From an uncultured Eubacteriales bacterium (GTDB taxonomy: Bacteria > Bacillota > Clostridia > Oscillospirales > QAMX01), in the NCBI GenBank assembly GCA_959600635.1, contig CAUGMN010000002.1, positions 3,030-67,029 on the forward strand: DNA of 64,000 nt, written 5' to 3'. A model generated the notes under the pieces. The model was given only the letters and a program-made list of their open reading frames with translations, was not told the origin of the DNA and did no database searches. The number at the start of each line of letters is the position of its first letter. The first letter of the stretch is position 1. Positions 4,515 through 61,681 of the stretch are shown in pieces. Made by a program: the position numbers and the translations under genes.

Positions 4515-4565
4515 TGACTTTATTCCTTTCAGTTTTTTGCGATACAAACGGCGTTCGCCGCTCCG

Positions 4566-6317
4566 TCAACAGAGCGAGGCGAGGATCCGTTCGGCGAGCA
4601 GACGAACGATGTCAAAGCGTTTCAGCGGCGTCATCAGGTAAAACCCGTCGCAGAAGGGCGCCGATTTTTTGGCCATTTCCAAAGCGAATTCCACTGAAAG
4701 CAACGGAATTTCCTCCGGCGCCGCCCGTTCGAGGCGGTGAAGAAAATCATCGGGAATCTCAATCCCGGCGACTTCATTTGTAAGAAACAGCGCGTTTTTA
4801 TAGCTGGCAACCGGAAAAATACCGGCGAGGATTTTTGTATCCAGCGTTTCGTGCGCCATGCGGAGATGCTCGGCGGCTTCGTCGCTGAATACCGGCTGCG
4901 TCAGGAAAAACTGCGCGCCTGCCTCGCGTTTTTTGCGCGCCCGGTCAAGCTCCACGTCGAAGCGCAGGGTATTCAGGTTCAGCGCTCCGCCGATGAAAAA
5001 CGGGTTGGAGGCAAAAGCGGATTGGTTCAGCTCGTCGACAAAGCGGATCAGCCCATAGGAATTCATCGAGAAAACAGACTTGACGCCGCTTCGGTCGGTA
5101 TCCGAAAGCGGGTCGCCCGTCACCGCGAGCAGGTTGGAGACGCCTAAGGCGTTGGCGGCGAGCAGGCCGCCCTTGATGGCGATTTGATTGCGGTCGCGGC
5201 AGGCGAGGTGCGGCATCACCGGAATGCCGGCGTTCATGCAGACGGCGGCGGCCGTCGCCATGCTGTCGGCGCGCGCGCGGGAGAGCGGGGAATCGGCGAA
5301 GGTCAGCACATCCACGCCGGTCTCCTTCATCTGCTTAGCGGCTTCCAGAATCGGAGAAAGATCGTTATCGTGCGGCGGGTCGAGCTCGACGGCGACGACT
5401 TTGCGGCTGCCGAGCGAAAGTTTGGCGCGGAACGGATTCGGCCGGGAAACCGGAACGGCGGACTGAACCGCTGTTCCCGCCGCAGCGGAGGGCGTTTGAA
5501 TGCCGTGCCGCGCGTCGGTAAAGGCGCGGATATGCTGCGGCGTCGTGCCGCAGCAGCCGCCGACAATCGCGCAGCCGAGATGGGCCAGCTCAGAAAGCTT
5601 GCCCGCGTAATACTCCGCATTGTCGATATAAACGGTGCGCCCGCCGAAAACCGAAGGGTATCCGGCGTTAGGCATCGCGGAGAACGGTTTTTGCAACGGC
5701 AGCGCCTCGCGCACAAGCCGCACGAGGTGCGCCGGGCCGCAGATACAGTTGAGGCCGACGGCGTCTACGGTGTCGAGCGCCGCGGCCTGCCGCAGCAGCT
5801 GCGCGCAGCTCCGGCCGAGCCGCGTCAGCCCGTCCTGCGCGCCGGCAAAGGAGACGATAATCTGCGCCTGCGGCGCGCGCGCTTTGACGGCCGCGAAAAC
5901 AGGCGGCAGAGGATCGAGGTCGGGCTGAGTCTCAAACAAAAAATACTCGGCGCCGAGGGCGAGAAATTGCTCGGCCACGGCGAGATAGTCGCCGCTTTCG
6001 CCGTCTGGAATCGGGCCGATGTCGGCAAAAACGGATACCTCAGAGCCCTCCGCCGCTCTTTGCGCGTTGGCAAAACCGGCCTGTATCAGCCGCGTCAGCT
6101 CCGAAGCGTCCGGAAAGGTGACGGCGTTGCAGGAAAAAGTGTTTGTCTTGATCGCCTGCGCGCCGGCGGCGATATACTCTCGGTGAATCTGAACGACCGT
6201 TTCCGGGTCGCTCAGGTTCGCCGCTTCGCAGGGAGCGTCCCCGCGCGAGCGGGCGGCGTAATAGGTGCCGAAGGCGCCGTCAAACACAAACGGGCGCGGC
6301 AGTTCGTTTAGGTGCAT
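4566..6317 (-). CDS. Bifunctional homocysteine S-methyltransferase / 5,10-methylenetetrahydrofolate reductase (YitJ-like)
   Basis: The N-terminal half is a homocysteine-binding domain ending in the zinc motif GGCCGTTP. The C-terminal half is MetF-like MTHFR. 583 aa. Confidence 0.85.
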   Translation of the reverse strand: MHLNELPRPFVFDGAFGTYYAARSRGDAPCEAANLSDPETVVQIHREYIAAGAQAIKTNTFSCNAVTFPDASELTRLIQAGFANAQRAAEGSEVSVFADIGPIPDGESGDYLAVAEQFLALGAEYFLFETQPDLDPLPPVFAAVKARAPQAQIIVSFAGAQDGLTRLGRSCAQLLRQAAALDTVDAVGLNCICGPAHLVRLVREALPLQKPFSAMPNAGYPSVFGGRTVYIDNAEYYAGKLSELAHLGCAIVGGCCGTTPQHIRAFTDARHGIQTPSAAAGTAVQSAVPVSRPNPFRAKLSLGSRKVVAVELDPPHDNDLSPILEAAKQMKETGVDVLTFADSPLSRARADSMATAAAVCMNAGIPVMPHLACRDRNQIAIKGGLLAANALGVSNLLAVTGDPLSDTDRSGVKSVFSMNSYGLIRFVDELNQSAFASNPFFIGGALNLNTLRFDVELDRARKKREAGAQFFLTQPVFSDEAAEHLRMAHETLDTKILAGIFPVASYKNALFLTNEVAGIEIPDDFLHRLERAAPEEIPLLSVEFALEMAKKSAPFCDGFYLMTPLKRFDIVRLLAERILASLC

Positions 6318-11215: not shown

Positions 11216-12562
11216 TCAGTCGCCGATTGAAGCGCCTTCAAACAGGCGCGCTTCCAGCGCGGCGCGTTTGGCTTCAAAGCCCGGCTTGCCGATCAGCGCG
11301 TACATGTTCTGCTTATAGGCTTCGACGCCGGGCTGGTCGAACGGGTTGACGCCGAGCAGATAGCCCGACAGCCCGCAGGCAAATTCGAAGAAGTAGACCA
11401 GCTCGCCGAACGTATAGGCGCTGGGGCCGTCGAGCTCGACGGCGATGTTGGGCACGCCGCCGTCCACATGGGCGAGGATGGTTCCGAGCGCGGCCATACG
11501 GTTGAGCTCGTCAAGCTCTTTGCCGGCGAGGAAATTGAGTCCGTCGAGATTGTCCTCCGAATGCGGGACGGCGACGTGCGCGCCGGAGCGCTCAAAGGTG
11601 ACGACGGTTTCAAAGAGGTTCCGCATGCCCTGCTGGATGTATTGACCCATCGAATGCAGGTCGGCGGTCAGATCGACGGAGGCGGGGAAGATGCCCTTGT
11701 GGTCCTTGCCCTCGCTCTCGCCGTAAAGCTGCTTCCACCACTCGCCGACATAGCGGAACCGCGGCTCATAGGCGGCGATGATCTCCGTGGTGAAGCCGCT
11801 GCGGTAGAGCGCGTTTCGCGCCGCCGCGTACTGCCAGGCCGGGTTGTCCGCGGAGGGAGAGGCCAGAGCGGCGGCCATGGAGGCCGCGCCCGCGAGCATC
11901 GCGTCGATATCGACGCCGGCCACGGCGATGGGGAGCAGACCCACCGGCGTAAGCACCGAGAAACGGCCGCCGATGTCGTCGGGGATGACAAAGCTTGTGT
12001 AGCCGAGCGAATCCGCCAGCGTTTTCAGCGCGCCGCGCGCCTTGTCGGTCGTCGCATAGATGCGTTCTCTTGCGCCGTCCGCGCCGTAGCGGCGTTCCAG
12101 CAGCTCGCGGAAGATGCGGAAAGCGACGGCGGGCTCGGTGGTCGTTCCGGATTTGGAGATGACGTTAATAGAGAAGTCGACGCCGTCGAGCAGGTCAATC
12201 AGCTCCTCGGCCTGCGAGGCGGAGAGCGAATTGCCGGCGAAAAAGATTTTCGGAGTCCCGCGCGCCGTCAGGTTATAGTTCGGAGATTTGACAAATTCAA
12301 TGGCGGCGCGGGCGCCGAGATAGGAGCCGCCGATACCGATGACGAGCAGCACCGCGGAATCCGAGCGGATTTTCGCCGCGGCGGCCTTGACGGCCTCGAC
12401 CTCGTCGCGGTCGAACGCGCAGGGAAGAGAGAGCCAGCCGAGAAAATCGCTGCCCTTGCCGGTATGGCCGGTCAGCGTCGCGTGCGCGGCCGGAAGCTCG
12501 GCAAGGACGGAATCATACGGCGCGAAAGAAAGCATGTTTTTGACGGATACGGACAGTGACAT
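11216..12562 (-). CDS. pgi: Glucose-6-phosphate isomerase
   Basis: 448 aa Firmicute-type PGI ([30 protein letters not shown] motifs). Confidence 0.9.
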
Positions 12563-12705
12563 GGAAACATCTCCTGTATTTCAGATTCGGCCGGTTTCCG
12601 CACGGGCGAACCCCGGCCGCAGATTTTAAAATGGCGTTGCTATTTTGCCTTTGTAGAATCTTCCGCTTTTGCAGCTTCAAATATTATACCATAAATCCCG
12701 AATTT

Positions 12706-14742
12706 TTACAACTGCAAGACGGCCGCGGCGACGCTTTGCGGCTCGAGCGTCATCCGCAGCGCGCCCCCGTCAAACGCCGCGCCCGCAAGCCCGGCGGGCA
12801 GCTGCGAAAGATATTCCGAGCGCAGAACGATGTCGGCGGGGCGCTCGGAGAGATTGGTGACGAGCAGGAGCCGTTCGCCGCTGTCAAAGCGCTCCCACAC
12901 GGCTGCCAGCACGGCGCGCTCGGCGACGTCGCCCCGCTCGCTCTTGCCGCAGACGTCGGGCAATCCGCATTCCACGACCGGCGGGCGCAGCGGCCGGCCG
13001 GCGAAAAAGAACGGGTTATAGCGAAACCGCGTCTGCACGAGCGCGCGATAGTAGCCGCGGAGGGCGGGCGTCAGCGACAGGTAACGATCCGGTGAAAGCC
13101 ACCCCATCTGCTCGCCGAACAGAAGCGACTGCGCGGCGAAGATTTTCAGCGTCTCGTCGTCGTAAGCGCCGTTATAGTTTCGGCCGATCATCTCGATATA
13201 TCCCGCATAAACGGTCGAAAAGGCGGAAACCTGCCCGCTGAAAGTCGAGGACCATGACAAAAGGCCGGAGAGATGCTTCATATAGGCGTCGCCCAGACAC
13301 TCGGTCGTACAGGTTTTGGTTTTGACCGTCGTCCGCGCAATCGATTCCAGCATACGCTGATACGCCTCGACCCACCAGCGGCCGCCGCCGGCGGGGTGGT
13401 TATGCTCCTCGTCGCAGCAGAGCACGGGCGGCGCCGCGGCAATCTGATCGATATAAACGGCGTCGGCGCCGACCTCTGAAAATAAACGTTCACACAGCTC
13501 GCGCACCTTGTCGCGCCAGACGCCGCTCTGCGGACACATCACGGCGAGTTCGACGTCGCTGCCGTCGGCCTCCTTTGAGCCGTAATGCTCGGTGAACACG
13601 TTGCCCTGCGCATCCTTGGTGGCGCCGGCTTTGGCGACGGAGGAAAAGAGCCAGTCCTCGGCGCCGCGGTCGCGCGTGTCCCAGAGGCGTCCGTTGATAT
13701 AGGGCATGACGTGCAGGCCGCGCTCTTGAAGGGCGGAAAAGGTATCGAGAAAGCAGTCGCGCGCGGGAAAATAGTGCGGATAGTCGTTGTCGAACGGGTT
13801 GCGGTGCCATTCATAGAGGTGAACCGACGACGGGACGCCGAGATCCTCCTGTGCGGCGAGCGTCTTTTCGATATAGGCGGGAGTGTTGGTGACCGAGACG
13901 AGCCACCAGTGCGGGTTTTCACGCATCCAGCGGGGAATGTCGCCGCGTCCGCGCGCGGGCAGCCATGAGGCCTCGGCCTCGACAAATTCACGGTACAGTA
14001 TGGCCGCGTCGTACCAGTCGCCGTCGAACAGTTCCCAGACGAGGCGGCCGCCGAGCGTCTGCGAGTTGCGCGCGCGCGTGACGTTTTCGGCCGGAACGTC
14101 GGAAAAAAGCCGCAGCACCGTGCCGAATTTGGTTTCATTGGGCGAAAAAAGCTCGTGTGACATCGTCTTGACCGCGGCAAAACGGTCATGTACGCCGTAA
14201 TACAATCCGCGGCGAAGCCGTTGGTCCCAGAACGCCATGTAAGCCATGGCGGCCTCGCAGGAGGGGTAGATCGCATTTTTGAGGCGCGTCTGCCCCGACA
14301 GGTCGGAATAAACGACCCCGCCGTCGTGAGACAGAAAGAGGCGGAGCTCGTCGGTGACGTCGGCGTAAAGGTTCGGATAGGAGAGGGCTTGCAGCGAAAG
14401 ACCGTCCGCGAGGACGGCGCATGAGACCGTCCACTCCACGGCGGAACGGCGTTCGCCGCATACGGCCGACAGAAAAACGCGCAGCTCCGGGCGGCAGAGC
14501 GTGATCTGAGAGCCGCCTTCCTTTACGGAAACCTCCCAGCCGTCGAGAGAATCGAGCGTTTTCATTTGCCCGTCGGCGAGGGATTTCAGCGTCAGCGTGA
14601 ACAGCGCACGCTCGCCCGAAAAAAAGTCCGTCCCCGTTTTTTCATCGCGGAGTCCGGCAAAGGCGACGCCGTGAGAAAGCCGGACGAGCGAGACGCGGAG
14701 GTCAAGAGATTTCAGAACGATCGGATTCAGCTTGGATTCCAT
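12706..14742 (-). CDS. Uncharacterised TIM-barrel glycoside-hydrolase-like protein (DUF6259-like)
   Basis: Long ORF with normal codon bias and no signal peptide. Similarity to DUF6259-type putative glycosidases is from memory. Probable start is ATG 14742 (MESKLN); the track ORF starts at 14754. Confidence 0.55.
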   Translation of the reverse strand: MESKLNPIVLKSLDLRVSLVRLSHGVAFAGLRDEKTGTDFFSGERALFTLTLKSLADGQMKTLDSLDGWEVSVKEGGSQITLCRPELRVFLSAVCGERRSAVEWTVSCAVLADGLSLQALSYPNLYADVTDELRLFLSHDGGVVYSDLSGQTRLKNAIYPSCEAAMAYMAFWDQRLRRGLYYGVHDRFAAVKTMSHELFSPNETKFGTVLRLFSDVPAENVTRARNSQTLGGRLVWELFDGDWYDAAILYREFVEAEASWLPARGRGDIPRWMRENPHWWLVSVTNTPAYIEKTLAAQEDLGVPSSVHLYEWHRNPFDNDYPHYFPARDCFLDTFSALQERGLHVMPYINGRLWDTRDRGAEDWLFSSVAKAGATKDAQGNVFTEHYGSKEADGSDVELAVMCPQSGVWRDKVRELCERLFSEVGADAVYIDQIAAAPPVLCCDEEHNHPAGGGRWWVEAYQRMLESIARTTVKTKTCTTECLGDAYMKHLSGLLSWSSTFSGQVSAFSTVYAGYIEMIGRNYNGAYDDETLKIFAAQSLLFGEQMGWLSPDRYLSLTPALRGYYRALVQTRFRYNPFFFAGRPLRPPVVECGLPDVCGKSERGDVAERAVLAAVWERFDSGERLLLVTNLSERPADIVLRSEYLSQLPAGLAGAAFDGGALRMTLEPQSVAAAVLQL

Positions 14743-14843
14743 AGTGACCACCATTTCCTTTTATATTCTTTTTTTCAATCAGGTCTGCGTCCGTATTTCC
14801 GGATATCTGAAACGAATGGCGCGCGTCTGTCAGGAGCGATTAC

Positions 14844-23239: not shown

Positions 23240-23277
23240 ACCGCGGCCGCTTTTACACAAAAGCGGCCGCGGTTTTT
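23240..23277 (+). terminator. Rho-independent terminator after trxA
   Basis: accgcggccgctttt-acac-aaaagcggccgcggt (15-bp perfect stem) running into ttttt. Confidence 0.8.
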
Positions 23278-23374
23278 GAAGCAGGCCGGCGCCGAACCGG
23301 GGCGGATAGAAAACGTTCTAAACCACAACTAAGTTTTTCCGGCTATAATACCGGATAGAATGGAGTGGCGTATC

Positions 23375-24049
23375 ATGAAACTGCTATACGCAGAGGATGA
23401 AAAGAGTATGTCGGAAGCCGTAGTGGATATTCTGACCTATCATAAATATGTAGTGGATGCGGTGTATGACGGAGAAGAAGCCTTGGACTATGCCCTTTCA
23501 GAACAATATGACGGTATTATTTTAGATATTATGATGCCAAAGAGAAACGGTCTTGAAGTGTTGAAAACCCTTCGGCAAAAAGGGGTCAACACCCCGGTGC
23601 TGCTGCTCACAGCAAAGGCAGAAATTGAGGATAGAATTGCAGGGCTGGATCTGGGAGCGGACGATTATCTCCCGAAGCCTTTTGCTATGGGAGAACTCCT
23701 TGCCCGTGTCCGCGCAATGCTGCGCCGCAAGGAGACCTTTACGCCGGATATATTGAAATGCGGCAATATTTCTCTGAATATGCAGAGCTATGAGCTTTCA
23801 AACGGCGAGCAATCCTTTGTTTTGCCTAAACTCGAATATCAACTGATGGAGATATTGATGCTCAACAAAGGGATCTATTTATCCAGCGAGGATTTGCTTG
23901 TGAAGGTGTGGGGGTATGACGCCGATGCCGAGCTTGGAACTGTTTGGGTATATATTTCCTACCTCCGAAAGCGTTTGGCGGCTCTCAATGCCAATGTTGC
24001 CATTAGCGCCAAGCGCAATGTGGGTTATACGCTCGAGGTGATCGGATGA
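23375..24049 (+). CDS. OmpR/PhoB-family response regulator
   Basis: Receiver domain (YAEDE, DGIILDIMMPKRNG, LLLTAK) plus a winged-helix C-terminal domain. ATG 23375. Confidence 0.9.
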   Translation: MKLLYAEDEKSMSEAVVDILTYHKYVVDAVYDGEEALDYALSEQYDGIILDIMMPKRNGLEVLKTLRQKGVNTPVLLLTAKAEIEDRIAGLDLGADDYLPKPFAMGELLARVRAMLRRKETFTPDILKCGNISLNMQSYELSNGEQSFVLPKLEYQLMEILMLNKGIYLSSEDLLVKVWGYDADAELGTVWVYISYLRKRLAALNANVAISAKRNVGYTLEVIG

Positions 24050-25284
24050 TTAAGACTTTGCAGCGAAAATTTATTGTCACAGCAATGACAGCAATTTCTG
24101 TATTGCTGTTACTATTGCTCGGTACAATTAACCTGATCAATATTGGGGTGGTCGGAAAACAGATGGATGCAAAGCTTGAAATCATTTCTGAAAACGAAGG
24201 CAACCCCGATAATATCCCGATGATTCCCGGAAGTATGCCGCCGAGAGAGCCATATGGAACCAAAAACGATTACGATACCTTTATGTCCTCTAACTTTTTC
24301 GTGGTACGGTTTGATAGAAATGGAGAGATTATTCATACGGATGTGAGCCGAATATCCTCCGTCAGCGAGCAGGAAGCCGAAGAGCTGGCAGAGAAAGTCT
24401 ATGCCCAAAATGCTCTGTCGGGCAAAATTGATCGCTTTGAATATATGGTTAGAGATAGCCGTATGGGACTTGGAAAGGTTGCCGTATTTCTCGATACCTC
24501 CGGCGATATATATTCCTATATACGGGTATTGTTCCTTTCTGCCGCCATCGGTATCGTTTGTTGGGTTTTCATGTTGTTTTTTGTCATGCTGCTTTCTAAA
24601 CGAGCCATTCGTCCGATTGCCGAAAATATGGAAAAGCAAAAGCAATTCGTCACAAATGCCGGTCACGAAATCAAAACGCCCCTTGCGATTATTCAATCGA
24701 ATACAGAAGCAATGGAACTGTATAACGGCGGAAACAAGTGGAGCAAAAACATCAAGGAACAGACCATTCGGCTCAATGAGCTGATGAAAAACCTGCTCAT
24801 CCTCGCCCGCATGGATGAAAGCGGAGCCAACTTGAATTTGTCTGACTTTTCCCTCAGTCAGCTGCTTGCCGATCATACCGAGTGTTTCAGAGAAGCCTTG
24901 GAACTGCGTGGGATTGCCCTGAAAACAGATATTCAACCAATGATTTCTTTCCGTGCGAATAGAGAGCATATTACACAGCTGATCTCGGTGCTGATGGACA
25001 ATGCCGTAAAATATGCCGACGAGGGCGGCAATGTGTTTGTCTCTCTCGAAAGAAACGATAAGCGGATTAAATTGCAGTTTAAGAACACTTGTCGACAGCT
25101 GCCGCCCGTTGCTCCCGATAAACTGTTTGACCGATTTTATCGTGCCGACGAAGCGAGAACACAAAAAAGCGGCGGTTACGGTATCGGTTTGTCGGTAGCA
25201 CAGTCTATTACCGAAACTTACAAAGGCAAAATTTCCGCCGAATATGAAAACGGCAATACAATCGTATTTACCATTCGTTTTTGA
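24046..25284 (+). CDS. Sensor histidine kinase
   Basis: ATGA overlap with the response-regulator stop. Two TM segments, H-box HEIKTPLAIIQS, and N/G boxes (MDNAVKYA, GGYGIGLSVA). Confidence 0.9.
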   Translation: MIKTLQRKFIVTAMTAISVLLLLLLGTINLINIGVVGKQMDAKLEIISENEGNPDNIPMIPGSMPPREPYGTKNDYDTFMSSNFFVVRFDRNGEIIHTDVSRISSVSEQEAEELAEKVYAQNALSGKIDRFEYMVRDSRMGLGKVAVFLDTSGDIYSYIRVLFLSAAIGIVCWVFMLFFVMLLSKRAIRPIAENMEKQKQFVTNAGHEIKTPLAIIQSNTEAMELYNGGNKWSKNIKEQTIRLNELMKNLLILARMDESGANLNLSDFSLSQLLADHTECFREALELRGIALKTDIQPMISFRANREHITQLISVLMDNAVKYADEGGNVFVSLERNDKRIKLQFKNTCRQLPPVAPDKLFDRFYRADEARTQKSGGYGIGLSVAQSITETYKGKISAEYENGNTIVFTIRF

Positions 25285-25396
25285 CAATGGCAAAGCGAAT
25301 TTCAGAAAGCAACACATTTTAAAGTCCGTGTTGTTCCGTTTGTTTTGAAATCTCCGTATAATGAAGACATCAAAAAACAAAAAGGGGATTTAAAAA

Positions 25397-25750
25397 ATGA
25401 ACACAGACAAAATTTATGCAGAGGCCATTGCAAACGAGTATTCTGTAAAGAAAACATCTAAAGTGGTCGCGCTCAAAAAACTAGACCGCAAGGCAAAAGA
25501 ACCTGCAAATATTTTCGCTTTCACCTTCGGTATTCTTTCGGCATTGGTGCTTGGCACGGGTATGTGCCTTTCGATGCAGGTGATCGGCAGCGGGACGACG
25601 ATGTTTGTACTTGGAACGATTATCGGTATTTTAGGCATTGCCGGTGTGAGCGCCAATTATTTTATCTACAAGAAAATGCTTGAAAAGGGCAAAGCAAAAT
25701 ACGCAAGCGATATTATCCGCCTGGCAAATGAAATCAGCGAGGAAGAATAG
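25397..25750 (+). CDS. Small two-TM membrane protein, function unknown
   Basis: 117 aa with GGGGA upstream. Central hydrophobic hairpin (IFAFTFGILSALVLGTGMCLSM ... MFVLGTIIGILGIAGVSANYFIY). Only 4 nt from the following TetR gene. Confidence 0.5.
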   Translation: MNTDKIYAEAIANEYSVKKTSKVVALKKLDRKAKEPANIFAFTFGILSALVLGTGMCLSMQVIGSGTTMFVLGTIIGILGIAGVSANYFIYKKMLEKGKAKYASDIIRLANEISEEE

Positions 25751-25753
25751 ACT

Positions 25754-26347
25754 ATGGATGGCAGTAAATTAAACAAAGCTCAAAGTAAATATTATAATAC
25801 TGCCTGCCTGATGGATGAGGCGTTGATTGCCTTGCTCGAAAAGAAAAACTATGAGTTTATTACTGTAAAAGAAATCTGCGAAAAAGCAGGGGTCAACCGC
25901 TCTACTTTTTATCTGCATTATGAAACAATGGAAGATTTATTATACGAGTGTATTAAATACGTAGGCGGAAAAATCACTGCAAAATATAAGACGGAAAGCC
26001 TGATTGACAAAACACAGATCAGTATTTGCCCCAAAGAAGATTTATTGCTTTTCACCCCGAAATATCTATTGCCTTATTTAGAGTTTACAAAGGAAAATAA
26101 GCGGGTGTATATGGCGGCTGTTGCACAGCCTGTGGTAATGAAAAGCAACGACATCATAAAGCATTTGTATACCGAACTGTTTGAACCGATATTGGCTCGG
26201 TTTGGCGTACCCAAAGAAGAAAGAAAATATCGGATGTCTTTTTACCTGAATGGTATTAGTGCAGTCATCATAGAATGGGTAAAAAATGGCTGCCGAGAAG
26301 AAACCGAGTCGATTGCAAACATTCTACTGAGTTGCTTGGGCGTTTAA
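25754..26347 (+). CDS. TetR/AcrR family transcriptional regulator
   Basis: N-terminal HTH FITVKEICEKAGVNRSTFYLHY; 197 aa. Confidence 0.85.
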   Translation: MDGSKLNKAQSKYYNTACLMDEALIALLEKKNYEFITVKEICEKAGVNRSTFYLHYETMEDLLYECIKYVGGKITAKYKTESLIDKTQISICPKEDLLLFTPKYLLPYLEFTKENKRVYMAAVAQPVVMKSNDIIKHLYTELFEPILARFGVPKEERKYRMSFYLNGISAVIIEWVKNGCREETESIANILLSCLGV

Positions 26348-26370
26348 ATAATGGAATATATACTATAAAA

Positions 26371-26399
26371 GCATCTATCGTTACAGATAGGTGCTTTTT
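26371..26399 (+). terminator. Rho-independent terminator after the TetR gene
   Basis: gcatctatc-gttaca-gataggtgc (9-bp stem with one G-U pair) followed by ttttt. Confidence 0.55.
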
Positions 26400-26463
26400 C
26401 TAAGTTCAAACTAAGGTTTTGGAATTATAATACCTCTATAAGATGAAGAAAGGAGTTGATTGT

Positions 26464-27135
26464 ATGCGGTTCAGGCACGAATGGAAGCACGAGATTTTCT
26501 ATGTAGAGATGCTCTCGCTTCGCAGCCGGTTGTCTGCCGTTATGCAGCAGGACAGTCACGCGGTAAATGGCAGGTATAAAATTAGGAGCCTGTATTTTGA
26601 CAATCTTCGGGATAAAGCGTTACTGGAAAAGAGGAACGGAGTGAACACACGAGAAAAATTTCGTGTCCGCTACTATAATGAAGATTTGTCTTTGATTCTG
26701 CTGGAAAAGAAAAGCAAGGTCAATGGCCTGTGCAGCAAAGAACAAGAGGCCATTACATTAGAAGAAGCACAGTTGATTGCAGACAAAGACATCAAGAGTC
26801 TGTCCCAAAGTGAAAAAACGCTTGTAAAAGAACTCTGTTATAAAATGCAAACCGAGGGACTTGAACCAAAAACAATCGTGGACTATATTAGAGAACCGTT
26901 TGTATATGCACCGGGCAATGTTCGGGTGACGCTTGATTATGACATCCGAACGGGACTTACCGGCACGGATTTTCTAAATCCCGACTGCGTGATGGTTCCC
27001 GCAGGAAATGCCCCCATGATTCTTGAAGTAAAGTGGGACGAATTTTTACCCGCTGTTATTCGTGATATTGTGCAAGTTCCCGGCACGCATACCTCGGCAT
27101 TTTCCAAATATGCAGCTTGCCGTATCTACGGCTAA
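26464..27135 (+). CDS. VTC-domain (polyphosphate-polymerase-like, CYTH-like) protein
   Basis: The MRFRHEWKHEI start and the RSLYFDN and EKK motifs are recalled from bacterial VTC-domain proteins. ATG 26464 follows AAGGAG. Confidence 0.75.
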   Translation: MRFRHEWKHEIFYVEMLSLRSRLSAVMQQDSHAVNGRYKIRSLYFDNLRDKALLEKRNGVNTREKFRVRYYNEDLSLILLEKKSKVNGLCSKEQEAITLEEAQLIADKDIKSLSQSEKTLVKELCYKMQTEGLEPKTIVDYIREPFVYAPGNVRVTLDYDIRTGLTGTDFLNPDCVMVPAGNAPMILEVKWDEFLPAVIRDIVQVPGTHTSAFSKYAACRIYG

Positions 27136-27166
27136 AACAAAAACCATTTTGAAGGAGAAAACGATT

Positions 27167-27838
27167 ATGAATTTTCAAGATATTTTTAAGTCCAGCTTTT
27201 TGGAAAACATTACGAGCGTTTCCCTGCTTGATATGGCCATCGCTCTGATTTTGGCTTTCGGCATCGGTATGTTTATTTTTTTAATCTATAAAAAGACCTT
27301 TGCCGGTGTGATGTATTCCTCCTCGTTTGGCGTCACATTGGTTGCCCTTACTATGATTTCAACCCTCGTGATTTTGGCAGTAACCTCTAATGTGGTGCTG
27401 TCGCTTGGTATGGTTGGCGCGTTGTCGATTGTGCGTTTCCGTACCGCTATCAAGGAACCCCTTGATATTGCTTTCCTCTTTTGGGCGATCGCAGTCGGCA
27501 TTGTGCTCGCCGCCGGTATGATTCCTCTCGCCGTGTTTGGCAGCGTAGTGATCGGCATTGTTCTTCTCATCTTTGCCAACCAAAAAGCACACTTGAATCC
27601 CTATATCGTAGTGATTCGCTGTGAAAACCACGACAGCGAGATGGCCGCTATGGATTTTCTGAAAAAGCAGGTTCACCGCTGTGTCGTAAAGAGCAAGACC
27701 GCGCAAAAAGGCGCGATTGAAATGAATGTTGAAGTTCGTATGAAAGAAGATAACACCGATTTTGTCAATATTCTTTCCGAGATGAACGGCATAAACAGTG
27801 CGGTTCTCGTAAGCTACAACGGCGACTATATGGGTTAA
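27167..27838 (+). CDS. DUF4956 family membrane protein
   Basis: Multi-TM N-terminal half with SIVRFRTAIKEPLDIAFLFWAIAVG, typical of DUF4956. ATG 27167 follows GAAGGAGA. Confidence 0.75.
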   Translation: MNFQDIFKSSFLENITSVSLLDMAIALILAFGIGMFIFLIYKKTFAGVMYSSSFGVTLVALTMISTLVILAVTSNVVLSLGMVGALSIVRFRTAIKEPLDIAFLFWAIAVGIVLAAGMIPLAVFGSVVIGIVLLIFANQKAHLNPYIVVIRCENHDSEMAAMDFLKKQVHRCVVKSKTAQKGAIEMNVEVRMKEDNTDFVNILSEMNGINSAVLVSYNGDYMG

Positions 27839-27853
27839 TAGAGGGAGGAAACT

Positions 27854-30055
27854 ATGTCAACGCACAAATCTTTTGATAAAATTTGCTGCGTCATTTGCGC
27901 CCTAACCCTTGTGCTGGCAATATTGTTTATGAACGCCGAGAGTTTCGGCATTCAAAAGGCTTCTTCGGCTCCGGGATATGAAACCCGATTGTTTGACACA
28001 TCAAAGGTGCATACCGTAAATATCGTTATGGATGATTGGGAGGAATTTCTTGAATCCTGCGCCAATGAGGAATACACCGAGTGTTCGGTGATCATTGATA
28101 ACGAAGCATTTAAAAATGTGGCGATCAGAGCAAAGGGCAACACGTCTCTTTCCAATGTGCAAAGCTACGGCAACGACCGATACAGCTTCAAAATAGAGTT
28201 TGACCATTATGATGGCACAAACACCTATTACGGACTGGATAAACTGAGTCTAAACAATATCATTCAGGACAATACGTATATGAAGGATTATCTAACCTAT
28301 CAAATGATGGGATACTTCGGTGTCAGCGCGCCGCTTTGCAGTTATGTTCAAATTTTAGTGAACGGCGAAGAATGGGGGCTGTATCTCGCAGTCGAGGGTG
28401 TGGAGGAATCCTTCCTTTCAAGAAACTACGGGAATGACTACGGAGAACTTTATAAACCCGACAGTATGAGCATGGGCGGCGGGCGCGGAAACGGCGGAAA
28501 TTTTAATATGGAGGATTGGAGAGAAACGCAGGATCAGGAGATGCCGGATGGAACGGGACAGCAAGATGAGAATATTCAACCGCCAGACAGCAGCGGTCAG
28601 GGCGGCATACAAGGCGGTCAAATTAGGCCGGGGAATATGGAAATTACCATTGAGCAAATCAAGCAAATGGTAACCTCCTTGGATGACGACGCGTTATCGG
28701 CTGCCGCGGAACTTCTTGGATACGAAAACAAAGAAGCGATGCTGTCTGCATTAGAAGCGGCAACGGATTTGGAGGCTTTTCTAAACGGGAAAACGATGAT
28801 GGATTTGGCAAGCCTTTTTATGGGGAAAAGTGGCGGTTTCGGTCAAGACGGTACGCAAATGCCGGATCTAAATGGCGGCGGAATGGGCGGAATCGGCAGT
28901 TCGGATGTTTCGCTGATCTATTCGGATGATGAATACACAAGCTATTCCAACATTTTTGATAATGCCAAGACCGATATTTCCGATACAGACAAAGACCGTT
29001 TGATTGCTTCTCTGAAAAAGCTGAATGAAAACAGCAGTATTGAGGATGTTGTGAATGTGGAGGAGGTTATTCGCTACTTTGTGGTGCATAACTTTGTCTG
29101 TAACTTTGACAGCTACACCGGATCGATGATTCATAACTACTATCTCTATGAAGAAGATGGTCAGCTCTCTATGATTCCGTGGGACTATAACCTTGCCTTC
29201 GGCGGATTTGTAGGCGGTTCGGACGCAACAAGCCTTGTCAACTATCCCATTGACACCCCTGTATCAGGCGGTACGGTCGAATCAAGACCGATGCTCTCGT
29301 GGATTTTTAAAAGCGAAGAATATACCGAACTGTATCATCAGTATTTTGCAGAGTTTGTTTCGCAATATTTTGACAGCGGATATTTTGCAGAAATGATAGA
29401 CGATGTCAAGGAAATGATTTCTCCCTATGTCGAGAGCGACCCTACAAAGTTCTGTACCTATGAAGAATTTGAAACGGGTATCGACACTCTCAAAGAATTT
29501 TGCTTACTCCGCGCAGAGAGCGTAAAGGCTCAACTTGACGGTACAATCGCATCCACCTCAGGAGAACAAGATCAGGAAACCCTGATCGATGCTTCGAATC
29601 TTACGATCTCCGCCATGGGCAGTATGGGTGGAGGGATGGGCGGCAGTATAGATAGGCCGGCTAATATCGGTCAAGATCAAATGCCGGATATGCAGCAATC
29701 CGACACAAGCGGAGAGCAAAACCGTTCTGTGCCGCAAATGCCGGGGAATAACGCTCAGGATGAAAACAATTCTGCCGCAGACCAAAACGGAACACAGGAG
29801 CAGCTTCCAAACGGCGGCAACGGCGAGCAGCCTCCGCAAAGCGGAGAAATGCCCGGATTTCAGCAAGGCGGCCGTATGCAGAACTTCACACAAGGCGATA
29901 ACGGACAGGGAATAAGCCGCCCCGACAGTAACGGAGGGCAAACGGGGAATCAGAGCGATACAAGTGGCGCAAATTCCTATCTATTGCTTGGTGTATGCGG
30001 CGCGGTATTGCTCGCAGGATTGCTTTTTGCCCTACTTTACAAGAAGCGAGTTTGA
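27854..30055 (+). CDS. CotH-family atypical kinase, membrane-anchored at both ends, with a long Q/G/N/P-rich tail
   Basis: N-terminal signal-anchor helix, then a CotH-like core (VIIDNEAFKNVAIRAKGNTSL, YSFKIEFDHY, LSLNN, YMKDYLTYQMM). About 150 aa of low complexity and a C-terminal TM helix (YLLLGVCGAVLLAGLLFALLYKKRV) follow. Confidence 0.8.
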   Translation: MSTHKSFDKICCVICALTLVLAILFMNAESFGIQKASSAPGYETRLFDTSKVHTVNIVMDDWEEFLESCANEEYTECSVIIDNEAFKNVAIRAKGNTSLSNVQSYGNDRYSFKIEFDHYDGTNTYYGLDKLSLNNIIQDNTYMKDYLTYQMMGYFGVSAPLCSYVQILVNGEEWGLYLAVEGVEESFLSRNYGNDYGELYKPDSMSMGGGRGNGGNFNMEDWRETQDQEMPDGTGQQDENIQPPDSSGQGGIQGGQIRPGNMEITIEQIKQMVTSLDDDALSAAAELLGYENKEAMLSALEAATDLEAFLNGKTMMDLASLFMGKSGGFGQDGTQMPDLNGGGMGGIGSSDVSLIYSDDEYTSYSNIFDNAKTDISDTDKDRLIASLKKLNENSSIEDVVNVEEVIRYFVVHNFVCNFDSYTGSMIHNYYLYEEDGQLSMIPWDYNLAFGGFVGGSDATSLVNYPIDTPVSGGTVESRPMLSWIFKSEEYTELYHQYFAEFVSQYFDSGYFAEMIDDVKEMISPYVESDPTKFCTYEEFETGIDTLKEFCLLRAESVKAQLDGTIASTSGEQDQETLIDASNLTISAMGSMGGGMGGSIDRPANIGQDQMPDMQQSDTSGEQNRSVPQMPGNNAQDENNSAADQNGTQEQLPNGGNGEQPPQSGEMPGFQQGGRMQNFTQGDNGQGISRPDSNGGQTGNQSDTSGANSYLLLGVCGAVLLAGLLFALLYKKRV

Positions 30056-30073
30056 TGTTGAGGAGAGGTAAGT

Positions 30074-30667
30074 ATGAGAAAACTGTTGGCTATGCTGTGT
30101 GCGATGGCTTTGGCGGTTTCTGTATCTGCTTGCGGTAATGACACAAAAGATTATAGCAATCAAACCGTTATGGGCAAGGTGGTTTCCATTGATGGCGATT
30201 CTGTCACCTTACAAATTGCCTTGATGGATATGCCCGAAGGAATGGAAGGCAGTTCCGGTAATATGCCGCAAGGACAAATGCCAAACGGCGAAAATGGAAT
30301 CTCGCCCGTAATGCCGAATGGAGGGAGCGGCACAGCGCCGCAGGCTCAAACGCCGCCTAACAATGAAAATGGTTCAATGCCTGAAATGCCATCAGGCGGC
30401 GAAATGCCTGATAGCGCTTTGGGCGGCGGCAACGGTGAAAAACCTCCGCAAAACGGAGAAATGTCCGACATGTTTGCCGATAATGGAGAGGAAATCACAA
30501 TCAGTCTTGAAGGGATAGCGATCAAGATTGAATCCGGCGGCGAAACGACAGACGGCACAAAAGAGGATATTAAAGAAGATTCTATGGTTGCCGTTGAATT
30601 TGGCGACAAGAATACCGCTAAAACGATTACTGTAAAAATGCAGGGCGGCTCTGGAATGCGGGACTGA
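30074..30667 (+). CDS. Lipoprotein with a Met/Pro/Gly/Asn/Glu-rich low-complexity core, function unknown
   Basis: Lipobox LAVSVSAC; AGGAGAGG upstream. It shares the GGNGE-x-PPQ-x-GEM segment with the CotH tail. Confidence 0.6.
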   Translation: MRKLLAMLCAMALAVSVSACGNDTKDYSNQTVMGKVVSIDGDSVTLQIALMDMPEGMEGSSGNMPQGQMPNGENGISPVMPNGGSGTAPQAQTPPNNENGSMPEMPSGGEMPDSALGGGNGEKPPQNGEMSDMFADNGEEITISLEGIAIKIESGGETTDGTKEDIKEDSMVAVEFGDKNTAKTITVKMQGGSGMRD

Positions 30668-30711
30668 TCGATAGGAGCCAACGCCTTTGCGCCGGTTGAT
30701 CAAAAGAAAGA

Positions 30712-30755
30712 TACTGAGAGAAACCAATACAGTTTCTCTCAGTACCTTTCTTTTT
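30712..30755. terminator. Bidirectional terminator (end of island operon / end of pfp)
   Basis: tactgagagaaac-caataca-gtttctctcagta (13-bp perfect stem). It is flanked by an A-rich tract on the left and cctttcttttt on the right. Confidence 0.75.
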
Positions 30756-30817
30756 CGTTGCTATGCCCAATAGGTTAATAAATCGGCGTTCGTATTTGCA
30801 GGAGCCGTGGTGAATGC

Positions 30818-32065: not shown

Positions 32066-32116
32066 AGAAATTTGCTCCTCTCATGTGTAAAGTTTCCATT
32101 TTGTCGCGATGGTTCT

Positions 32117-32145
32117 ATTATACCGCAAAGCACTGCAAATTGCAA
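32117..32145 (-). promoter_or_regulatory. Sigma-70-type promoter of pfp
   Basis: The minus strand reads TTGCAA, a 17-nt spacer, then TATAAT, about 50 nt upstream of the pfp ATG (RBS GAGAGGAG). Confidence 0.6.
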
Positions 32146-32358
32146 GATGTTTAGCTGCGGAAAGGAATTCAAAATCGCACCGCACAGCCCTGCGGAACGG
32201 CGCGGTTTCCATAGATAGAGGCGGAGTAAAACCGGGCGCATGGCCTGCAAAGTCAAGATCCGGCCAGCGTTTTGTTCCCGCAAAGACCGGTAGAGCCGTT
32301 TTTTTCACGCAACGGAGAAAAGGGCTGTCCTCTCGGAAACGCATCGCCAAAATACTCT

Positions 32359-32380
32359 TGTCCGTCAAATGTCCGTCAAA
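32359..32380. repeat. 11-bp perfect tandem duplication (tgtccgtcaaa x2) in non-coding DNA
   Basis: Read directly: tgtccgtcaaatgtccgtcaaa. Confidence 0.9.
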
Positions 32381-32515
32381 GCGTAAACCTGCGATGGCCG
32401 CTCCATTACCGGAAACGGCAATACCGCCCGGCGGAGAAAGAGCGTGATCGGCATCAATCGCGGTTCGACCGCTTCAAATTCGTGTTGAAATCAGCCGCGG
32501 ACAGGCTTTCGGGCT

Positions 32516-61629: not shown

Positions 61630-61681
61630 CTCTTTTCCCTCTTATCTTCAACTATCTCTTATCAAAAAATACAGTTCTACT

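What the first reader, a model, noticed from the sequence alone, without database searches (positions are those of the whole stretch)
23330..30760. Mobility-gene-free AT-rich island: TCS + TetR + VTC-domain / DUF4956 / CotH-kinase / lipoprotein operon inserted between the trxA and pfp terminators
Composition switches abruptly by eye, including codon third positions. The switch occurs right after the trxA terminator (23240-23277) and reverts at the hairpin at 30712-30755. The 7.4-kb block therefore looks horizontally acquired.

I see no integrase, transposase, tRNA or flanking direct repeat.

The content forms three apparent units:
- An OmpR-type response regulator and histidine kinase, with an ATGA overlap.
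- A 117-aa two-TM protein and a TetR regulator 4 nt apart, closed by a terminator at 26371-26399.
- A VTC-domain protein, a DUF4956 membrane protein, a CotH kinase and a lipoprotein, tightly spaced with strong RBSs.

VTC domains are the catalytic polyphosphate-polymerase module of the yeast VTC complex. CotH is an atypical protein kinase. Here the CotH core is predicted to be extracytoplasmic, held between an N-terminal and a C-terminal TM helix. To my knowledge the combined function of this bacterial trio is not established. A surface phosphorylation or polyphosphate-export machine under TCS control is one possible reading.
Basis: partly seen in the sequence, partly recalled or inferred. Interest (0 to 1): 0.65.

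Follow-up and report, generated by a model that had tools for sequence, protein, structure and literature searches.

The report
Imported polyphosphate and surface-kinase gene cassette
A spore-forming gut bacterium has acquired from a distantly related bacterial family a self-contained gene cassette that pairs a yeast-like polyphosphate-making enzyme and a membrane partner with a kinase displayed outside the cell, apparently switched on by its own sensor pair; its chemistry has never been tested.

Summary
Bases 23317 to about 30760 have 44.8% GC and GC3 of 0.42-0.55. The flanking genes have about 58% GC and GC3 of 0.74-0.81. The block sits between the trxA and pfp terminators.

A related Oscillospiraceae genome (L015) keeps trxA next to pfp without the block. 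The block is 81-84% identical in DNA to low-GC Lachnospiraceae-type contigs, so horizontal acquisition is well supported.

The regulator, kinase, VTC, DUF4956 and CotH genes form one conserved cassette. The 117-aa/TetR pair is a nested 1.1-kb insertion that was already present in a low-GC relative (L183).

- **VTC protein:** it keeps eight of the nine Vtc4 residues shown to matter for polyphosphate synthesis, including the lysine missing from inactive Vtc2/3; the ninth (K200) could not be placed.
- **DUF4956:** it is MgtC-like.
- **CotH:** it keeps its catalytic aspartates and is predicted to lie outside the membrane.
- **Regulation:** a direct-repeat box precedes both promoters and recurs in 27 of 72 related loci.
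- **Third gene:** in relatives it can be a Cthe_2159 carbohydrate-binding protein instead of CotH.

The trio is already published as an accessory set of Gram-positive Pel loci, without a biochemical function. This is a stand-alone, sensor-coupled variant. Polyphosphate export feeding the outside kinase is inference.

The parts
23240..23278 (+). trxA intrinsic terminator. It is the host-side left boundary, and foreign DNA begins about 40 nt downstream.
   Evidence: 15-bp perfect stem plus a T run (I4). Folds at -32.2 kcal/mol, z -7.8.
23316..23333 (+). Direct-repeat box 1 (TTCTAA-N6-ACTAAG, CTAA half-sites 11 bp apart), 10 nt upstream of the -10 TATAAT at 23344-23349. Candidate autoregulatory site of the response regulator.
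   Evidence: The pattern occurs only twice in the window against 0.06 expected. The same box lies upstream of the RR gene in L091, L095, L112, L147 and L183. DNA similarity to Lachnospiraceae-type loci starts here.
23375..24049 (+). OmpR/PhoB-type response regulator, 224 aa
   Evidence: Pfam Response_reg 1.3e-29 and Trans_reg_C 3.4e-17. 90-91% identical to the RR of the Lachnospiraceae cassettes.
24046..25284 (+). Sensor histidine kinase, 412 aa, with two TM segments flanking a loop of about 130 aa outside the membrane
   Evidence: Pfam HisKA and HATPase_c. TM segments at 10-28 and 161-179. ATGA overlap with the RR gene.
25289..26389 (+). Nested 1.1-kb insertion with its own promoter-like site and terminator: a 117-aa two-TM protein (25397-25750), a TetR regulator (25754-26347) and a hairpin (26367-26398)
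   Evidence: Absent from L091-L102, whose DNA similarity skips 25289-26389. Present in L183. The pair stands alone next to secE-nusG in L184. Hairpin folds at -17 kcal/mol, z -7.2.
26398..26415 (+). Direct-repeat box 2 (TTCTAAGTTCAAACTAAG), 10 nt upstream of the -10 TATAAT at 26426-26431. Candidate RR site driving the VTC operon.
   Evidence: (D5). The box [CT]TAA-N7-[CT]TAA[GA] lies 57-106 nt upstream of the VTC start (57-73 nt in 22 loci) in 27 of 72 unique related loci, against 0.11 expected.
26464..27135 (+). Soluble VTC-domain protein, 223 aa: a Vtc4-type triphosphate-tunnel enzyme and predicted polyphosphate polymerase
   Evidence: Pfam VTC 122.6 bits against a cut-off of 23. A profile of 48 diverse homologues hits Vtc4 3g3q at E 1.9e-10. 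R67, R69, K83, Y141, R143, E188, S214 and K215 align to Vtc4 R264, R266, K281, Y359, R361, E426, S457 and K458. Best Foldseek hit is 3g3r.
27167..27838 (+). DUF4956 membrane protein, 223 aa: an MgtC-like TM domain (3 TM segments above threshold by hydropathy; 4 TM reported for the S. intermedius homologue, PMC12345266) plus a cytoplasmic ACT-like (beta-alpha-beta-beta-alpha-beta) tail
   Evidence: Pfam DUF4956. NCBIfam MgtC/SapB E 7.8e-10, below cut-off. The C-terminal domain's best Foldseek hit is 2lqj, the MgtC C-terminal domain. It lies directly after VTC in 59 of 60 loci.
27854..30055 (+). CotH-family kinase-like protein, 733 aa, with an N-terminal hydrophobic anchor, a core predicted outside the membrane, low-complexity G/M/P/Q-rich stretches and a C-terminal TM followed by YKKRV
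   Evidence: Pfam CotH 4.1e-65. PDB 5jd9 at E 4.3e-13, with NFD...HNY...WDY aligned. D419, N428 and D444 are kept in 29-30 of 30 homologues. TM segments at 10-28 and 710-728.
30074..30667 (+). Predicted lipoprotein, 197 aa (lipobox VSAC, Cys20), with a Met/Pro/Gly/Asn/Glu-rich linker that shares a 44-nt repeat with the CotH tail
   Evidence: Sequence and hydropathy. Repeat D3, 29812-29855 / 30424-30467, 86% identical. Weak homologues follow CotH in L091 and L103.
30702..30754 (.). Bidirectional terminator hairpin shared by the lipoprotein operon and the convergent pfp. It marks the right end of the low-GC block.
   Evidence: 23-nt arms, 96% complementary (I1). Folds at -28.3 kcal/mol, z -8.0. 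Found on both strands. The relatives have different hairpins after pfp.

Best explanation
The block is foreign DNA. A composite cassette of about 7.45 kb from low-GC Lachnospiraceae-type Clostridia was inserted, without any mobility gene of its own, between the convergent terminators of trxA and pfp. The host is a high-GC, spore-forming Oscillospiraceae gut bacterium, and the block is present in every strain contig that reaches far enough.

Functionally it is a self-regulated cell-envelope module. The proposed mechanism has five steps.

1. (Inferred.) The histidine kinase senses a signal outside the membrane through its loop of about 130 aa and phosphorylates the OmpR-type regulator.
2. (Site shown, binding inferred.) The regulator binds an 11-bp-spaced direct repeat (TTCTAAG-N4-AACTAAGG) placed where a -35 element would be. 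The repeat occurs in front of the regulator's own gene and in front of the VTC operon, so both are activated together.
3. (Residues shown, activity inferred.) The soluble VTC protein is a Vtc4-type tunnel enzyme that keeps eight of the nine residues shown to matter for polyphosphate synthesis, including the lysine that separates active Vtc4 from inactive Vtc2/3. It makes polyphosphate from ATP at the inner face of the membrane.
4. (Inferred from near-obligate adjacency.) The MgtC-like DUF4956 protein is its membrane partner. It takes the place of the Vtc1-type channel of the yeast complex and passes or presents the polymer to the outer face.
5. (Inferred.) The CotH-family kinase is tethered outside the membrane and has intact catalytic aspartates. 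It phosphorylates a surface polymer, most likely a glycan, or else the co-encoded lipoprotein or the low-complexity tails. It uses that phosphoanhydride supply because ATP is scarce outside the cell.

The 117-aa/TetR pair is an unrelated nested cassette. It left the regulator box upstream of VTC intact.
For: **Foreign origin**
- GC and GC3 break at the borders.
- L015 is collinear from SecA to GH42 but has only a nucleotidyltransferase ORF between pfp and trxA.
- The block is 81-84% identical in DNA to contigs of 0.39-0.47 GC.
- Closest named proteins come from Dorea, Mediterraneibacter and other Lachnospiraceae at 87-94%, while pfp is about 70% identical to Lachnospiraceae pfp.
- GC3 of the block genes lies between donor-like and host values.
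- The block is present in every strain contig that reaches far enough.

**One cassette**
- RR-HK-VTC-DUF4956-CotH lies in four further, different chromosomal contexts.
- The composite form with the TetR pair exists in L183.

**Regulation**
- Box statistics are, with boxes upstream of both genes in several loci.

**VTC active site:**

**DUF4956**
- It follows VTC in 59 of 60 loci, and also in loci where DUF4956 is only 24-29% identical.
- MgtC-like features.

**CotH:**

**Glycan link**
- The third gene is a Cthe_2159 carbohydrate-binding protein in 14 of 48 loci, with the same N-terminal anchor and C-terminal TM.
- Distant trios sit inside polysaccharide clusters (PMC7112168; PMC2879425).
- Deleting the DUF4956 and CotH homologues in S. 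intermedius alters Pel levels and aggregation (PMC12345266).
Against: - No activity of any bacterial VTC-domain, DUF4956 or membrane-tethered CotH protein has been measured. Polyphosphate synthesis, export and donor use are all inference.
- In S. intermedius, deleting the VTC homologue (SIR_1593) gave no reported phenotype, whereas deleting its neighbours did. That argues against an obligatory VTC-to-CotH supply line.
- The DUF4956 and CotH deletions changed Pel levels in opposite directions.
- DUF4956 is unlike the Vtc1 channel. MgtC relatives are known as regulators, not transporters.
- Both AlphaFold models were poor (pLDDT 63 and 56). The Vtc4 K200 equivalent could not be placed unambiguously.
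- Only 17 of 42 related loci have a TCS right upstream.
- No polysaccharide synthesis genes lie in this 64-kb window or recur around 33 related loci, so the target is unknown.
- The N-terminal hydrophobic segment of CotH may be a cleaved signal peptide rather than an anchor.
Confidence: 0.5

Rival explanations
1. The same foreign cassette, but with no polyphosphate export. VTC plus the MgtC-like DUF4956 act on cytoplasmic phosphate or polyphosphate homeostasis or signalling, with the ACT-like tail as a ligand sensor. The CotH protein is an ordinary ATP-using kinase, or a non-catalytic binder, that tunes exopolysaccharide or envelope assembly. The genes are neighbours because they answer to the same envelope or phosphate stress signal.
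For: MgtC relatives are linked to phosphate and ATP homeostasis rather than transport (as cited in PMC12345266). The VTC deletion in S. intermedius had no aggregation phenotype while the DUF4956 and CotH deletions did, and in opposite directions for Pel level. DUF4956 has no similarity to the Vtc1 channel.
Against: VTC and DUF4956 are adjacent in 59 of 60 loci, and the third gene is always a protein displayed outside the membrane. An outside kinase with intact catalytic residues needs a phosphoryl donor outside the cell. The only characterised VTC enzyme couples synthesis to membrane transit.
Confidence: 0.27
2. The CotH gene is a conventional spore-coat kinase of this spore-former, as in Bacillus, and the neighbouring genes are unrelated.
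For: The host carries sporulation and germination genes nearby: GerA family, GPR and SpoIIP. CotH is best known from spore coats (PMC7821199).
Against: The protein has a signal or anchor segment and a C-terminal TM. It sits in a conserved operon after VTC and DUF4956 behind a TCS-type box. The same trio occurs in non-sporulating streptococci and bifidobacteria (PMC7112168). CotH can be replaced by Cthe_2159.
Confidence: 0.04
3. The block is ancestral rather than imported. Its low GC reflects local selection, and relatives such as L015 lost it.
For: Every strain of the species examined has it. No mobility gene, tRNA or flanking repeat marks an insertion. The closest relatives (L011, L012) break synteny right after pfp, so their state at this site is unknown.
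Against: GC3 is about 0.3 below that of the neighbouring genes. The block is 81-84% identical in DNA and up to 94% in protein to another family, far above the roughly 70% seen for pfp. The same cassette sits at four further unrelated sites in low-GC genomes whose own GC it matches.
Confidence: 0.03
4. The AT-rich, mobility-free block is an anti-phage defence island.
For: Low-GC variable islands often carry defence genes.
Against: None of VTC, DUF4956, CotH, the lipoprotein, the 117-aa protein or TetR matches any PADLOC model. Only generic receiver and ATPase similarity was found for the TCS.
Confidence: 0.02

Closest known systems
Accessory gene set cotH / poly-phosphate polymerase / DUF4956 (/ DUF4832) of Gram-positive Pel loci (Whitfield et al. 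2020, PMC7112168; S. intermedius SIR_1592-1594, PMC12345266)
   Same: The same three protein families lie next to each other: a secreted or surface CotH-like protein, a soluble VTC-domain protein, and a DUF4956 protein with an MgtC-like TM domain and an ACT-like tail. No biochemical function has been assigned.
   Different: No pelDEADAFG genes or any polysaccharide synthase lie in this 64-kb window, and none recur among 147 neighbouring proteins around 33 related loci. This contradicts the 2025 paper's remark that the trio is not found outside Pel loci. Here the trio is coupled to its own two-component system and box, the gene order is VTC-DUF4956-CotH, CotH has a C-terminal TM instead of FN3, and there is no DUF4832.
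Yeast VTC complex (Vtc4/Vtc3/Vtc1), the eukaryotic polyphosphate polymerase-translocase (bioRxiv 10.1101/2023.01.27.525886; PDB 3g3q, 8i6v)
   Same: The catalytic domain belongs to the same Pfam family and keeps the residues that bind triphosphate and Mn2+, including the K458 equivalent. A membrane partner is always encoded alongside.
   Different: The bacterial protein is only the 223-aa tunnel domain, with no SPX domain and no TM domain. The partner is an MgtC-like DUF4956 protein, not a Vtc1-type three-helix subunit. The product would be delivered outside the cell, not into a vacuole. Activity is untested.
Bacillus CotH spore-coat kinase with substrates CotB and CotG (Nguyen et al. 2016, as cited in PMC7821199; PDB 5jd9)
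   Same: Same CotH fold family. The catalytic Asp (D228 equivalent, D419) and the metal-binding Asp (D251 equivalent, D444) are conserved. A neighbouring low-complexity protein is a possible substrate.
   Different: This protein is membrane-tethered and predicted to lie outside the cell rather than in the spore coat. Its kinase domain is split by a low-complexity insert of about 145 aa. It is controlled by a TCS-type box rather than by sporulation sigma factors.
VTC / 'tubulin-like' (DUF4956) / CotH / 685-aa / HEAT / glycosyltransferase cluster of C. perfringens NELoc-2 (PMC2879425), and the same layout on a Planococcus maritimus plasmid
   Same: Same trio in the same order, VTC-DUF4956-CotH.
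   Different: Those clusters continue with a HEAT-repeat protein and a processive-type glycosyltransferase, which makes them polysaccharide synthase systems. Nothing of the kind follows here. Protein identity is only about 30%.
MgtC/SapB family (Salmonella MgtC; M. tuberculosis MgtC C-terminal domain, PDB 2lqj)
   Same: Shared architecture of a TM domain with a GxxGAxxxxR-type core motif plus a beta-alpha-beta-beta-alpha-beta C-terminal domain.
   Different: The score is far below the family cut-off (38.7 against 214 bits). MgtC is not known to work with a tunnel enzyme.

Membership tests
VTC domain / Vtc4-type polyphosphate polymerase (PF09359) | Sequence match to the family model above the curated threshold | tested here: met
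   122.6 bits against a cut-off of 23, covering positions 2-230 of 235.
VTC domain / Vtc4-type polyphosphate polymerase (PF09359) | Residues that bind triphosphate and Mn2+ and are required for polyphosphate synthesis in Vtc4 (K200, R264, R266, K281, Y359, R361, E426, S457, K458) | tested here: met
   Eight of nine align to R67, R69, K83, Y141, R143, E188, S214 and K215. These are invariant or nearly invariant in 48 diverse homologues. K200 lies in the unaligned first strand, where R4 is invariant and K8 is conserved in 90% or more. The C-terminal segment (E426, S457, K458) aligned only below threshold but is clear by eye.
VTC domain / Vtc4-type polyphosphate polymerase (PF09359) | Triphosphate-tunnel (eight-stranded beta-barrel) fold | tested here: inconclusive
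   The best Foldseek hits are Vtc4 3g3r (E 1e-5) and then other tunnel enzymes. The model is poor (pLDDT 63, TM 0.36).
VTC domain / Vtc4-type polyphosphate polymerase (PF09359) | Polyphosphate synthesis from ATP | not testable with these tools
   Needs an enzyme assay.
Yeast-type VTC complex | SPX regulatory domain and Vtc1-type TM channel subunits | tested here: not met
   The protein is 223 aa with no SPX match and no TM segment. The partner gene is DUF4956, which is MgtC-like.
CotH kinase family (PF08757) | Family match plus the catalytic Asp and metal-binding Asp (B. subtilis D228, D251) | tested here: met
   Pfam E 4.1e-65. Alignment to 5jd9 shows NFD/HNY/WDY. D419, N428 and D444 are kept in 29-30 of 30 homologues.
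CotH kinase family (PF08757) | Spore-coat location and sporulation-specific expression | tested here: not met
   Hydrophobic N-terminus and C-terminal TM. The gene lies in an operon behind a TCS-type box. Location itself was not measured.
Pel accessory set (cotH, PPP, DUF4956, DUF4832) | The three families contiguous | tested here: met
Pel accessory set (cotH, PPP, DUF4956, DUF4832) | Contiguous with pelDEADAFG; DUF4832 present | tested here: not met
   No Pel or other synthase genes among the window ORFs scanned. None recur among 147 neighbours of 33 related loci. The rest of the genome could not be searched.
MgtC/SapB family | Match above the curated threshold | tested here: not met
   NCBIfam PRK09977 gives 38.7 bits against a cut-off of 214, and Pfam MgtC gives E 0.3. 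The protein resembles the family (fold hit 2lqj) but is filed as DUF4956.
Genomic island acquired by horizontal transfer | Atypical composition with sharp borders | tested here: met
Genomic island acquired by horizontal transfer | Absent from the same site in a related genome, with closest relatives in another lineage | tested here: met
   L015. Lachnospiraceae-type loci.
Genomic island acquired by horizontal transfer | Integrase, tRNA target or flanking direct repeats | tested here: not met
   None found. The means of insertion is unknown.

The most novel reading that the evidence does not exclude
Bacteria have a third, Vtc4-like route to polyphosphate. A soluble tunnel polymerase docked on an MgtC-like membrane protein threads the polymer to the outside of the cell. 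There a tethered CotH-family kinase, or in other lineages a Cthe_2159 beta-helix protein, uses or binds it to phosphorylate or cross-link surface glycans. This would answer how a kinase outside the cell gets its phosphoryl donor. It would also give DUF4956/MgtC-type proteins a transport-coupling role. The whole unit would be a portable cassette that carries its own sensor, regulator and operator.
Probability: 0.22. Interest if true: 0.85.

Novelty: new variant of a known kind. Interest (0 to 1): 0.55.

Why it matters
Bacterial polyphosphate is attributed to PPK1 and PPK2. A working Vtc4-type enzyme in common gut Firmicutes would add a new source (4135 clusters at 50% identity match this protein).

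The fixed pairing with an MgtC-like membrane protein and a protein displayed outside the cell suggests polyphosphate or phosphate chemistry on the cell surface. That bears on biofilm matrix assembly, since Pel-linked versions affect aggregation in a pathogen.

This cassette is compact. It has a predicted operator, intact catalytic residues and natural variants with a swapped third gene, which makes it a convenient system for testing the idea.

The locus is also a clean case of gene transfer between families without any mobility gene.

Tried and rejected
- A single-sequence search and a shallow-profile search of the VTC protein against PDB missed Vtc4. Only a profile of diverse representatives worked.
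- Both AlphaFold models were low-confidence because only close homologues were allowed in the alignments. I used them only for the best fold hit.
- Alignment A2 was too diverse for the collection scan, so I used A3 instead.
- My first CotH tally (30 of 42) was inflated by matches to the shared N-terminal anchor and low-complexity tails. Recounting with domain cores gave 27 CotH, 14 Cthe_2159 and 7 none.
- Eight literature searches for a functional assignment of the trio found only gene-neighbourhood notes and the S. intermedius deletions. One search was badly framed and useless.
- No plasmid carries the cassette. Only TetR-pair look-alikes and two distant trios were found.
- There were no Rfam families in the window and no defence-system matches.
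- One 371-aa VTC-DUF4956 'fusion' (P0339) has a truncated VTC domain. I treat it as a probable frameshift artefact, not as evidence of fusion.
- The exact right border could not be fixed, because sequence downstream of pfp is not conserved among relatives.
- I considered that the block replaced a native module near pfp. I rejected this for lack of shared position or orientation.

Full report
**Observation**

The composition break is real and large. Bases 23330-30760 have 44.8% GC against 57.8% for the rest of the window. No other 7.4-kb stretch falls below 50% (mean 58.2%, sd 2.6). Third-codon-position GC is 0.42-0.55 for the eight genes inside. It is 0.74-0.81 for GH42, trxA, pfp and the sulfatase outside.

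- OmpR-type regulator, 23375-24049
- histidine kinase, 24046-25284, with an ATGA overlap
- 117-aa two-TM protein, 25397-25750
- TetR regulator, 25754-26347
- VTC domain protein, 26464-27135
- DUF4956, 27167-27838
- CotH, 27854-30055
- lipoprotein with no family match, 30074-30667

The last one reads as a terminator on both strands. There is no tRNA in the window. The block has no integrase or transposase domain and no flanking direct repeat.

**Is it an insertion?**

Ten places that encode an identical pfp protein all carry the block wherever the contig reaches far enough. Block proteins are 98-100% identical between strains.

Among 80 species-level relatives fetched through pfp, L015 is collinear with the window from SecA through sulfatase, pfp, trxA and GH42 and beyond. 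L015 is an Oscillospiraceae MAG with pfp 84% identical. It has only 670 nt between pfp and trxA, holding a 196-aa nucleotidyltransferase-like ORF. The site is therefore variable, and the block is absent from a relative.

The two closest relatives (pfp 95% and 93% identical) lose synteny directly after pfp. They are uninformative about this site.

**Where it came from**

The nearest VTC and DUF4956 proteins outside the species are 87-94% identical. Where they carry names, they come from Dorea, Mediterraneibacter and other Lachnospiraceae. Pfp, by contrast, is only about 70% identical to Lachnospiraceae pfp.

Four such contigs carry RR-HK-VTC-DUF4956-CotH as one tight unit at four different chromosomal sites. 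Their DNA is 81-84% identical to window 23317-25288 and 26390-28520, and 79-82% identical to 28844-30093. The match skips 25289-26389.

That skipped piece is the 117-aa/TetR pair with its own promoter-like site and terminator, so it is a nested insertion. It was not added in this host. Contig L183 (42% GC) has RR-HK-117aa-TetR-VTC in one piece, 81.6% identical over 4284 nt to window 23317-27591. The pair also occurs alone elsewhere.

The whole composite therefore arrived as one block from a low-GC lineage. GC3 of the block genes (0.48-0.55) lies between donor-like values (0.32-0.50) and host values. This fits partial adjustment to the host or a donor of intermediate GC. The left edge is at about 23317. 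The right edge lies within 30755-30817 and cannot be fixed, because sequence after pfp is not conserved in relatives.

**The proteins**

*VTC.* The match to the family is strong (122.6 bits). A profile of 48 diverse bacterial homologues finds yeast Vtc4 in PDB at E 1.9e-10. That alignment pairs Vtc4 residues with window VTC residues as follows:

| Vtc4 | Window VTC |
|---|---|
| R264 | R67 |
| R266 | R69 |
| K281 | K83 |
| Y359 | Y141 |
| R361 | R143 |
| E426 | E188 |
| S457 | S214 |
| K458 | K215 |

All eight are invariant or nearly so in the bacterial family. The cryo-EM study lists nine residues whose mutation significantly reduces polyphosphate content. These are eight of the nine. It also shows that K458 is what inactive Vtc2/3 lack. 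The ninth, K200, lies in the unaligned first strand, where R4 is invariant and K8 nearly so. A low-confidence model still finds Vtc4 as its best fold match.

*DUF4956.* Hydropathy at threshold 1.6 finds three TM segments; the S. intermedius homologue is reported with four (PMC12345266). The core motif VILAVTSNVVLSLGMVGALSIVRFR is highly conserved. It gives a sub-threshold full-length match to MgtC/SapB. Its C-terminal beta-alpha-beta-beta-alpha-beta domain has the MgtC C-terminal domain as best structural match.

*CotH.* It matches B. cereus CotH. It keeps the catalytic and metal-binding aspartates (D419, D444) and N428, as do 29-30 of 30 homologues. Hydrophobic segments at 10-28 and 710-728 put the core outside the membrane.

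*Lipoprotein.* It shares a 44-nt repeat, encoding GGNGE(Q/K)PPQ(S/N)GEM, with the CotH tail.

**Regulation**

The stretches upstream of the regulator gene and of VTC share a 37-nt similarity (D5). Its core is TTCTAA-N6-ACTAAG, with CTAA half-sites 11 bp apart, ending 10 nt before a TATAAT. This is the layout expected for an OmpR/PhoB-type activator (established knowledge of that family). The pattern occurs only at these two places in 64 kb, against 0.06 expected.

A relaxed form lies 57-106 nt upstream of the VTC start (57-73 nt in 22 loci) in 27 of 72 distinct related loci. Background is 17 hits in 1.1 Mb, giving 0.11 expected. The loci are related, so the P value overstates independence. The box also lies upstream of the regulator gene in L091, L095, L112, L147 and L183. 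This supports control of the operon by its own TCS. Binding itself is inferred.

**Survey of relatives**

I examined 80 metagenome loci whose VTC is 57-73% identical.
- DUF4956 follows VTC directly in 59 of 60 loci.
- The third gene has a CotH core in 27 of 48 loci, a Cthe_2159 carbohydrate-binding beta-helix in 14, and is absent in 7.
- Both kinds of third gene share the same N-terminal segment (MSTHK..D..C...LFMNGE.LGI), similar low-complexity tails and a C-terminal TM ending in YKKR. The displayed domain has therefore been swapped on a constant scaffold.
- A TCS lies directly upstream in 17 of 42 loci.
- Among 147 neighbouring proteins from 33 loci, no family recurs more than five times and no Pel genes appear.
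- The pairing also holds at 24-29% DUF4956 identity (L023, L042).
- More distant trios sit inside polysaccharide clusters. Examples are a Pseudobutyrivibrio plasmid and a Planococcus plasmid with the HEAT plus glycosyltransferase layout also seen in C. perfringens NELoc-2.

**Literature**

The trio was reported as an accessory set next to pelDEADAFG in streptococci, clostridia and bifidobacteria (PMC7112168).

In S. intermedius, deleting the DUF4956 gene raised Pel and deleting the CotH gene lowered it. Both deletions cut aggregation by more than half. Deleting the VTC gene gave no reported change. The authors state that they did not find the trio outside Pel loci (PMC12345266).

No paper in the searchable library assigns a biochemical function.

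**Mechanism**

My best reading is a portable, self-regulated envelope module.
1. The sensor kinase and regulator switch on the operon.
2. The Vtc4-like enzyme makes polyphosphate at the membrane.
3. The MgtC-like partner couples it to the outer face.
4. The tethered CotH kinase uses that supply on a surface polymer.

The recurring link to polysaccharide loci and the Cthe_2159 swap point to a glycan target.

What is shown:
- foreign origin
- cassette unity
- intact catalytic residues
- the conserved box
- predicted topology

What is inferred:
- polyphosphate synthesis
- export
- donor use
- the target

The silent VTC deletion in S. intermedius is the main evidence against a strict supply line. 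It keeps alive the rival in which VTC/DUF4956 act on cytoplasmic phosphate balance. Spore-coat, ancestral-locus and defence-island readings are poorly supported.

**Verdict**

The island claim is confirmed and sharpened. The gene trio is a known association of unknown function, so this is a new variant: stand-alone, TCS-coupled and moved between families, not a new kind. The interest lies in the testable polyphosphate and outside-kinase hypothesis and in the swapped third gene.

Noticed in passing
window 60500-63641: A second low-GC patch (0.40-0.46). It holds a GNAT acetyltransferase (60973-61629, GC3 0.32) and a 557-aa large serine recombinase (61968-63641). It is probably the edge of a true mobile element running off the window, 30 kb from the block studied.
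   Followed up: partly
L023 5437-8835; L042 2322-3774; L073 about 3800-5200: VTC-DUF4956 modules lie within 0-1.2 kb of pfp in two further independent lineages. One is a native high-GC VTC-DUF4956-Cthe_2159 set in L023. The other is VTC-DUF4956 convergent on pfp beside a DDE transposase in L042/L073. With 1.0 Mb of pfp flanks searched, Poisson P is about 0.005-0.05, so the association is suggestive and unexplained.
   Followed up: partly
L118, L119, L127, L128, L133, L141, L144, L146, L147, L153, L155, L156, L161, L166, L023: In these loci the gene after DUF4956 encodes a Cthe_2159 (PF14262) beta-helix protein instead of CotH. It has the same conserved N-terminal segment, low-complexity tail and C-terminal TM, so the domain was swapped on a fixed scaffold.
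   Followed up: yes
window 29812-29855 and 30424-30467: A 44-nt direct repeat, 86% identical, links the CotH tail to the lipoprotein linker (GGNGEQPPQSGEMP / GGNGEKPPQNGEMS). It suggests shared ancestry or gene conversion, or a common recognition motif.
   Followed up: no
L008 (GCA_964329885.1) 11399-12609: In this MAG, pfp and the lipoprotein gene are followed directly by a VTC fragment only 87% identical to the window's, just before the contig end. It is probably a chimeric join with a Lachnospiraceae copy rather than a real deletion of CotH and DUF4956.
   Followed up: no
L001, L002, L005, L008 versus L003, L004, L006, L007, L009, L010 (upstream of pfp); window 32066-32515: Strains differ by presence or absence of a 678-aa DUF6259 gene between the sulfatase and pfp, and of a 334-aa ORF further upstream. 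The window lacks the DUF6259 copy at this site but has one at 12706-14754. The pfp neighbourhood is an indel hotspot on both sides.
   Followed up: no
L015 11277-11867: The site that lacks the block holds a 196-aa nucleotidyltransferase-like ORF (Polbeta / NTP_transf_2, weak MntA-like match) between pfp and trxA. Different cargo therefore occupies the same intergenic slot.
   Followed up: partly
L004 11611-12280: In one strain contig the VTC gene is called as 197 aa plus 37 aa. This is a possible frameshift or sequencing error at its 5' end.
   Followed up: no
L114-L116, L120, L121: One gut species has VTC with the upstream box but a truncated DUF4956 (about 115-135 aa matched) and no third gene. 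This may be a decaying copy of the module.
   Followed up: no
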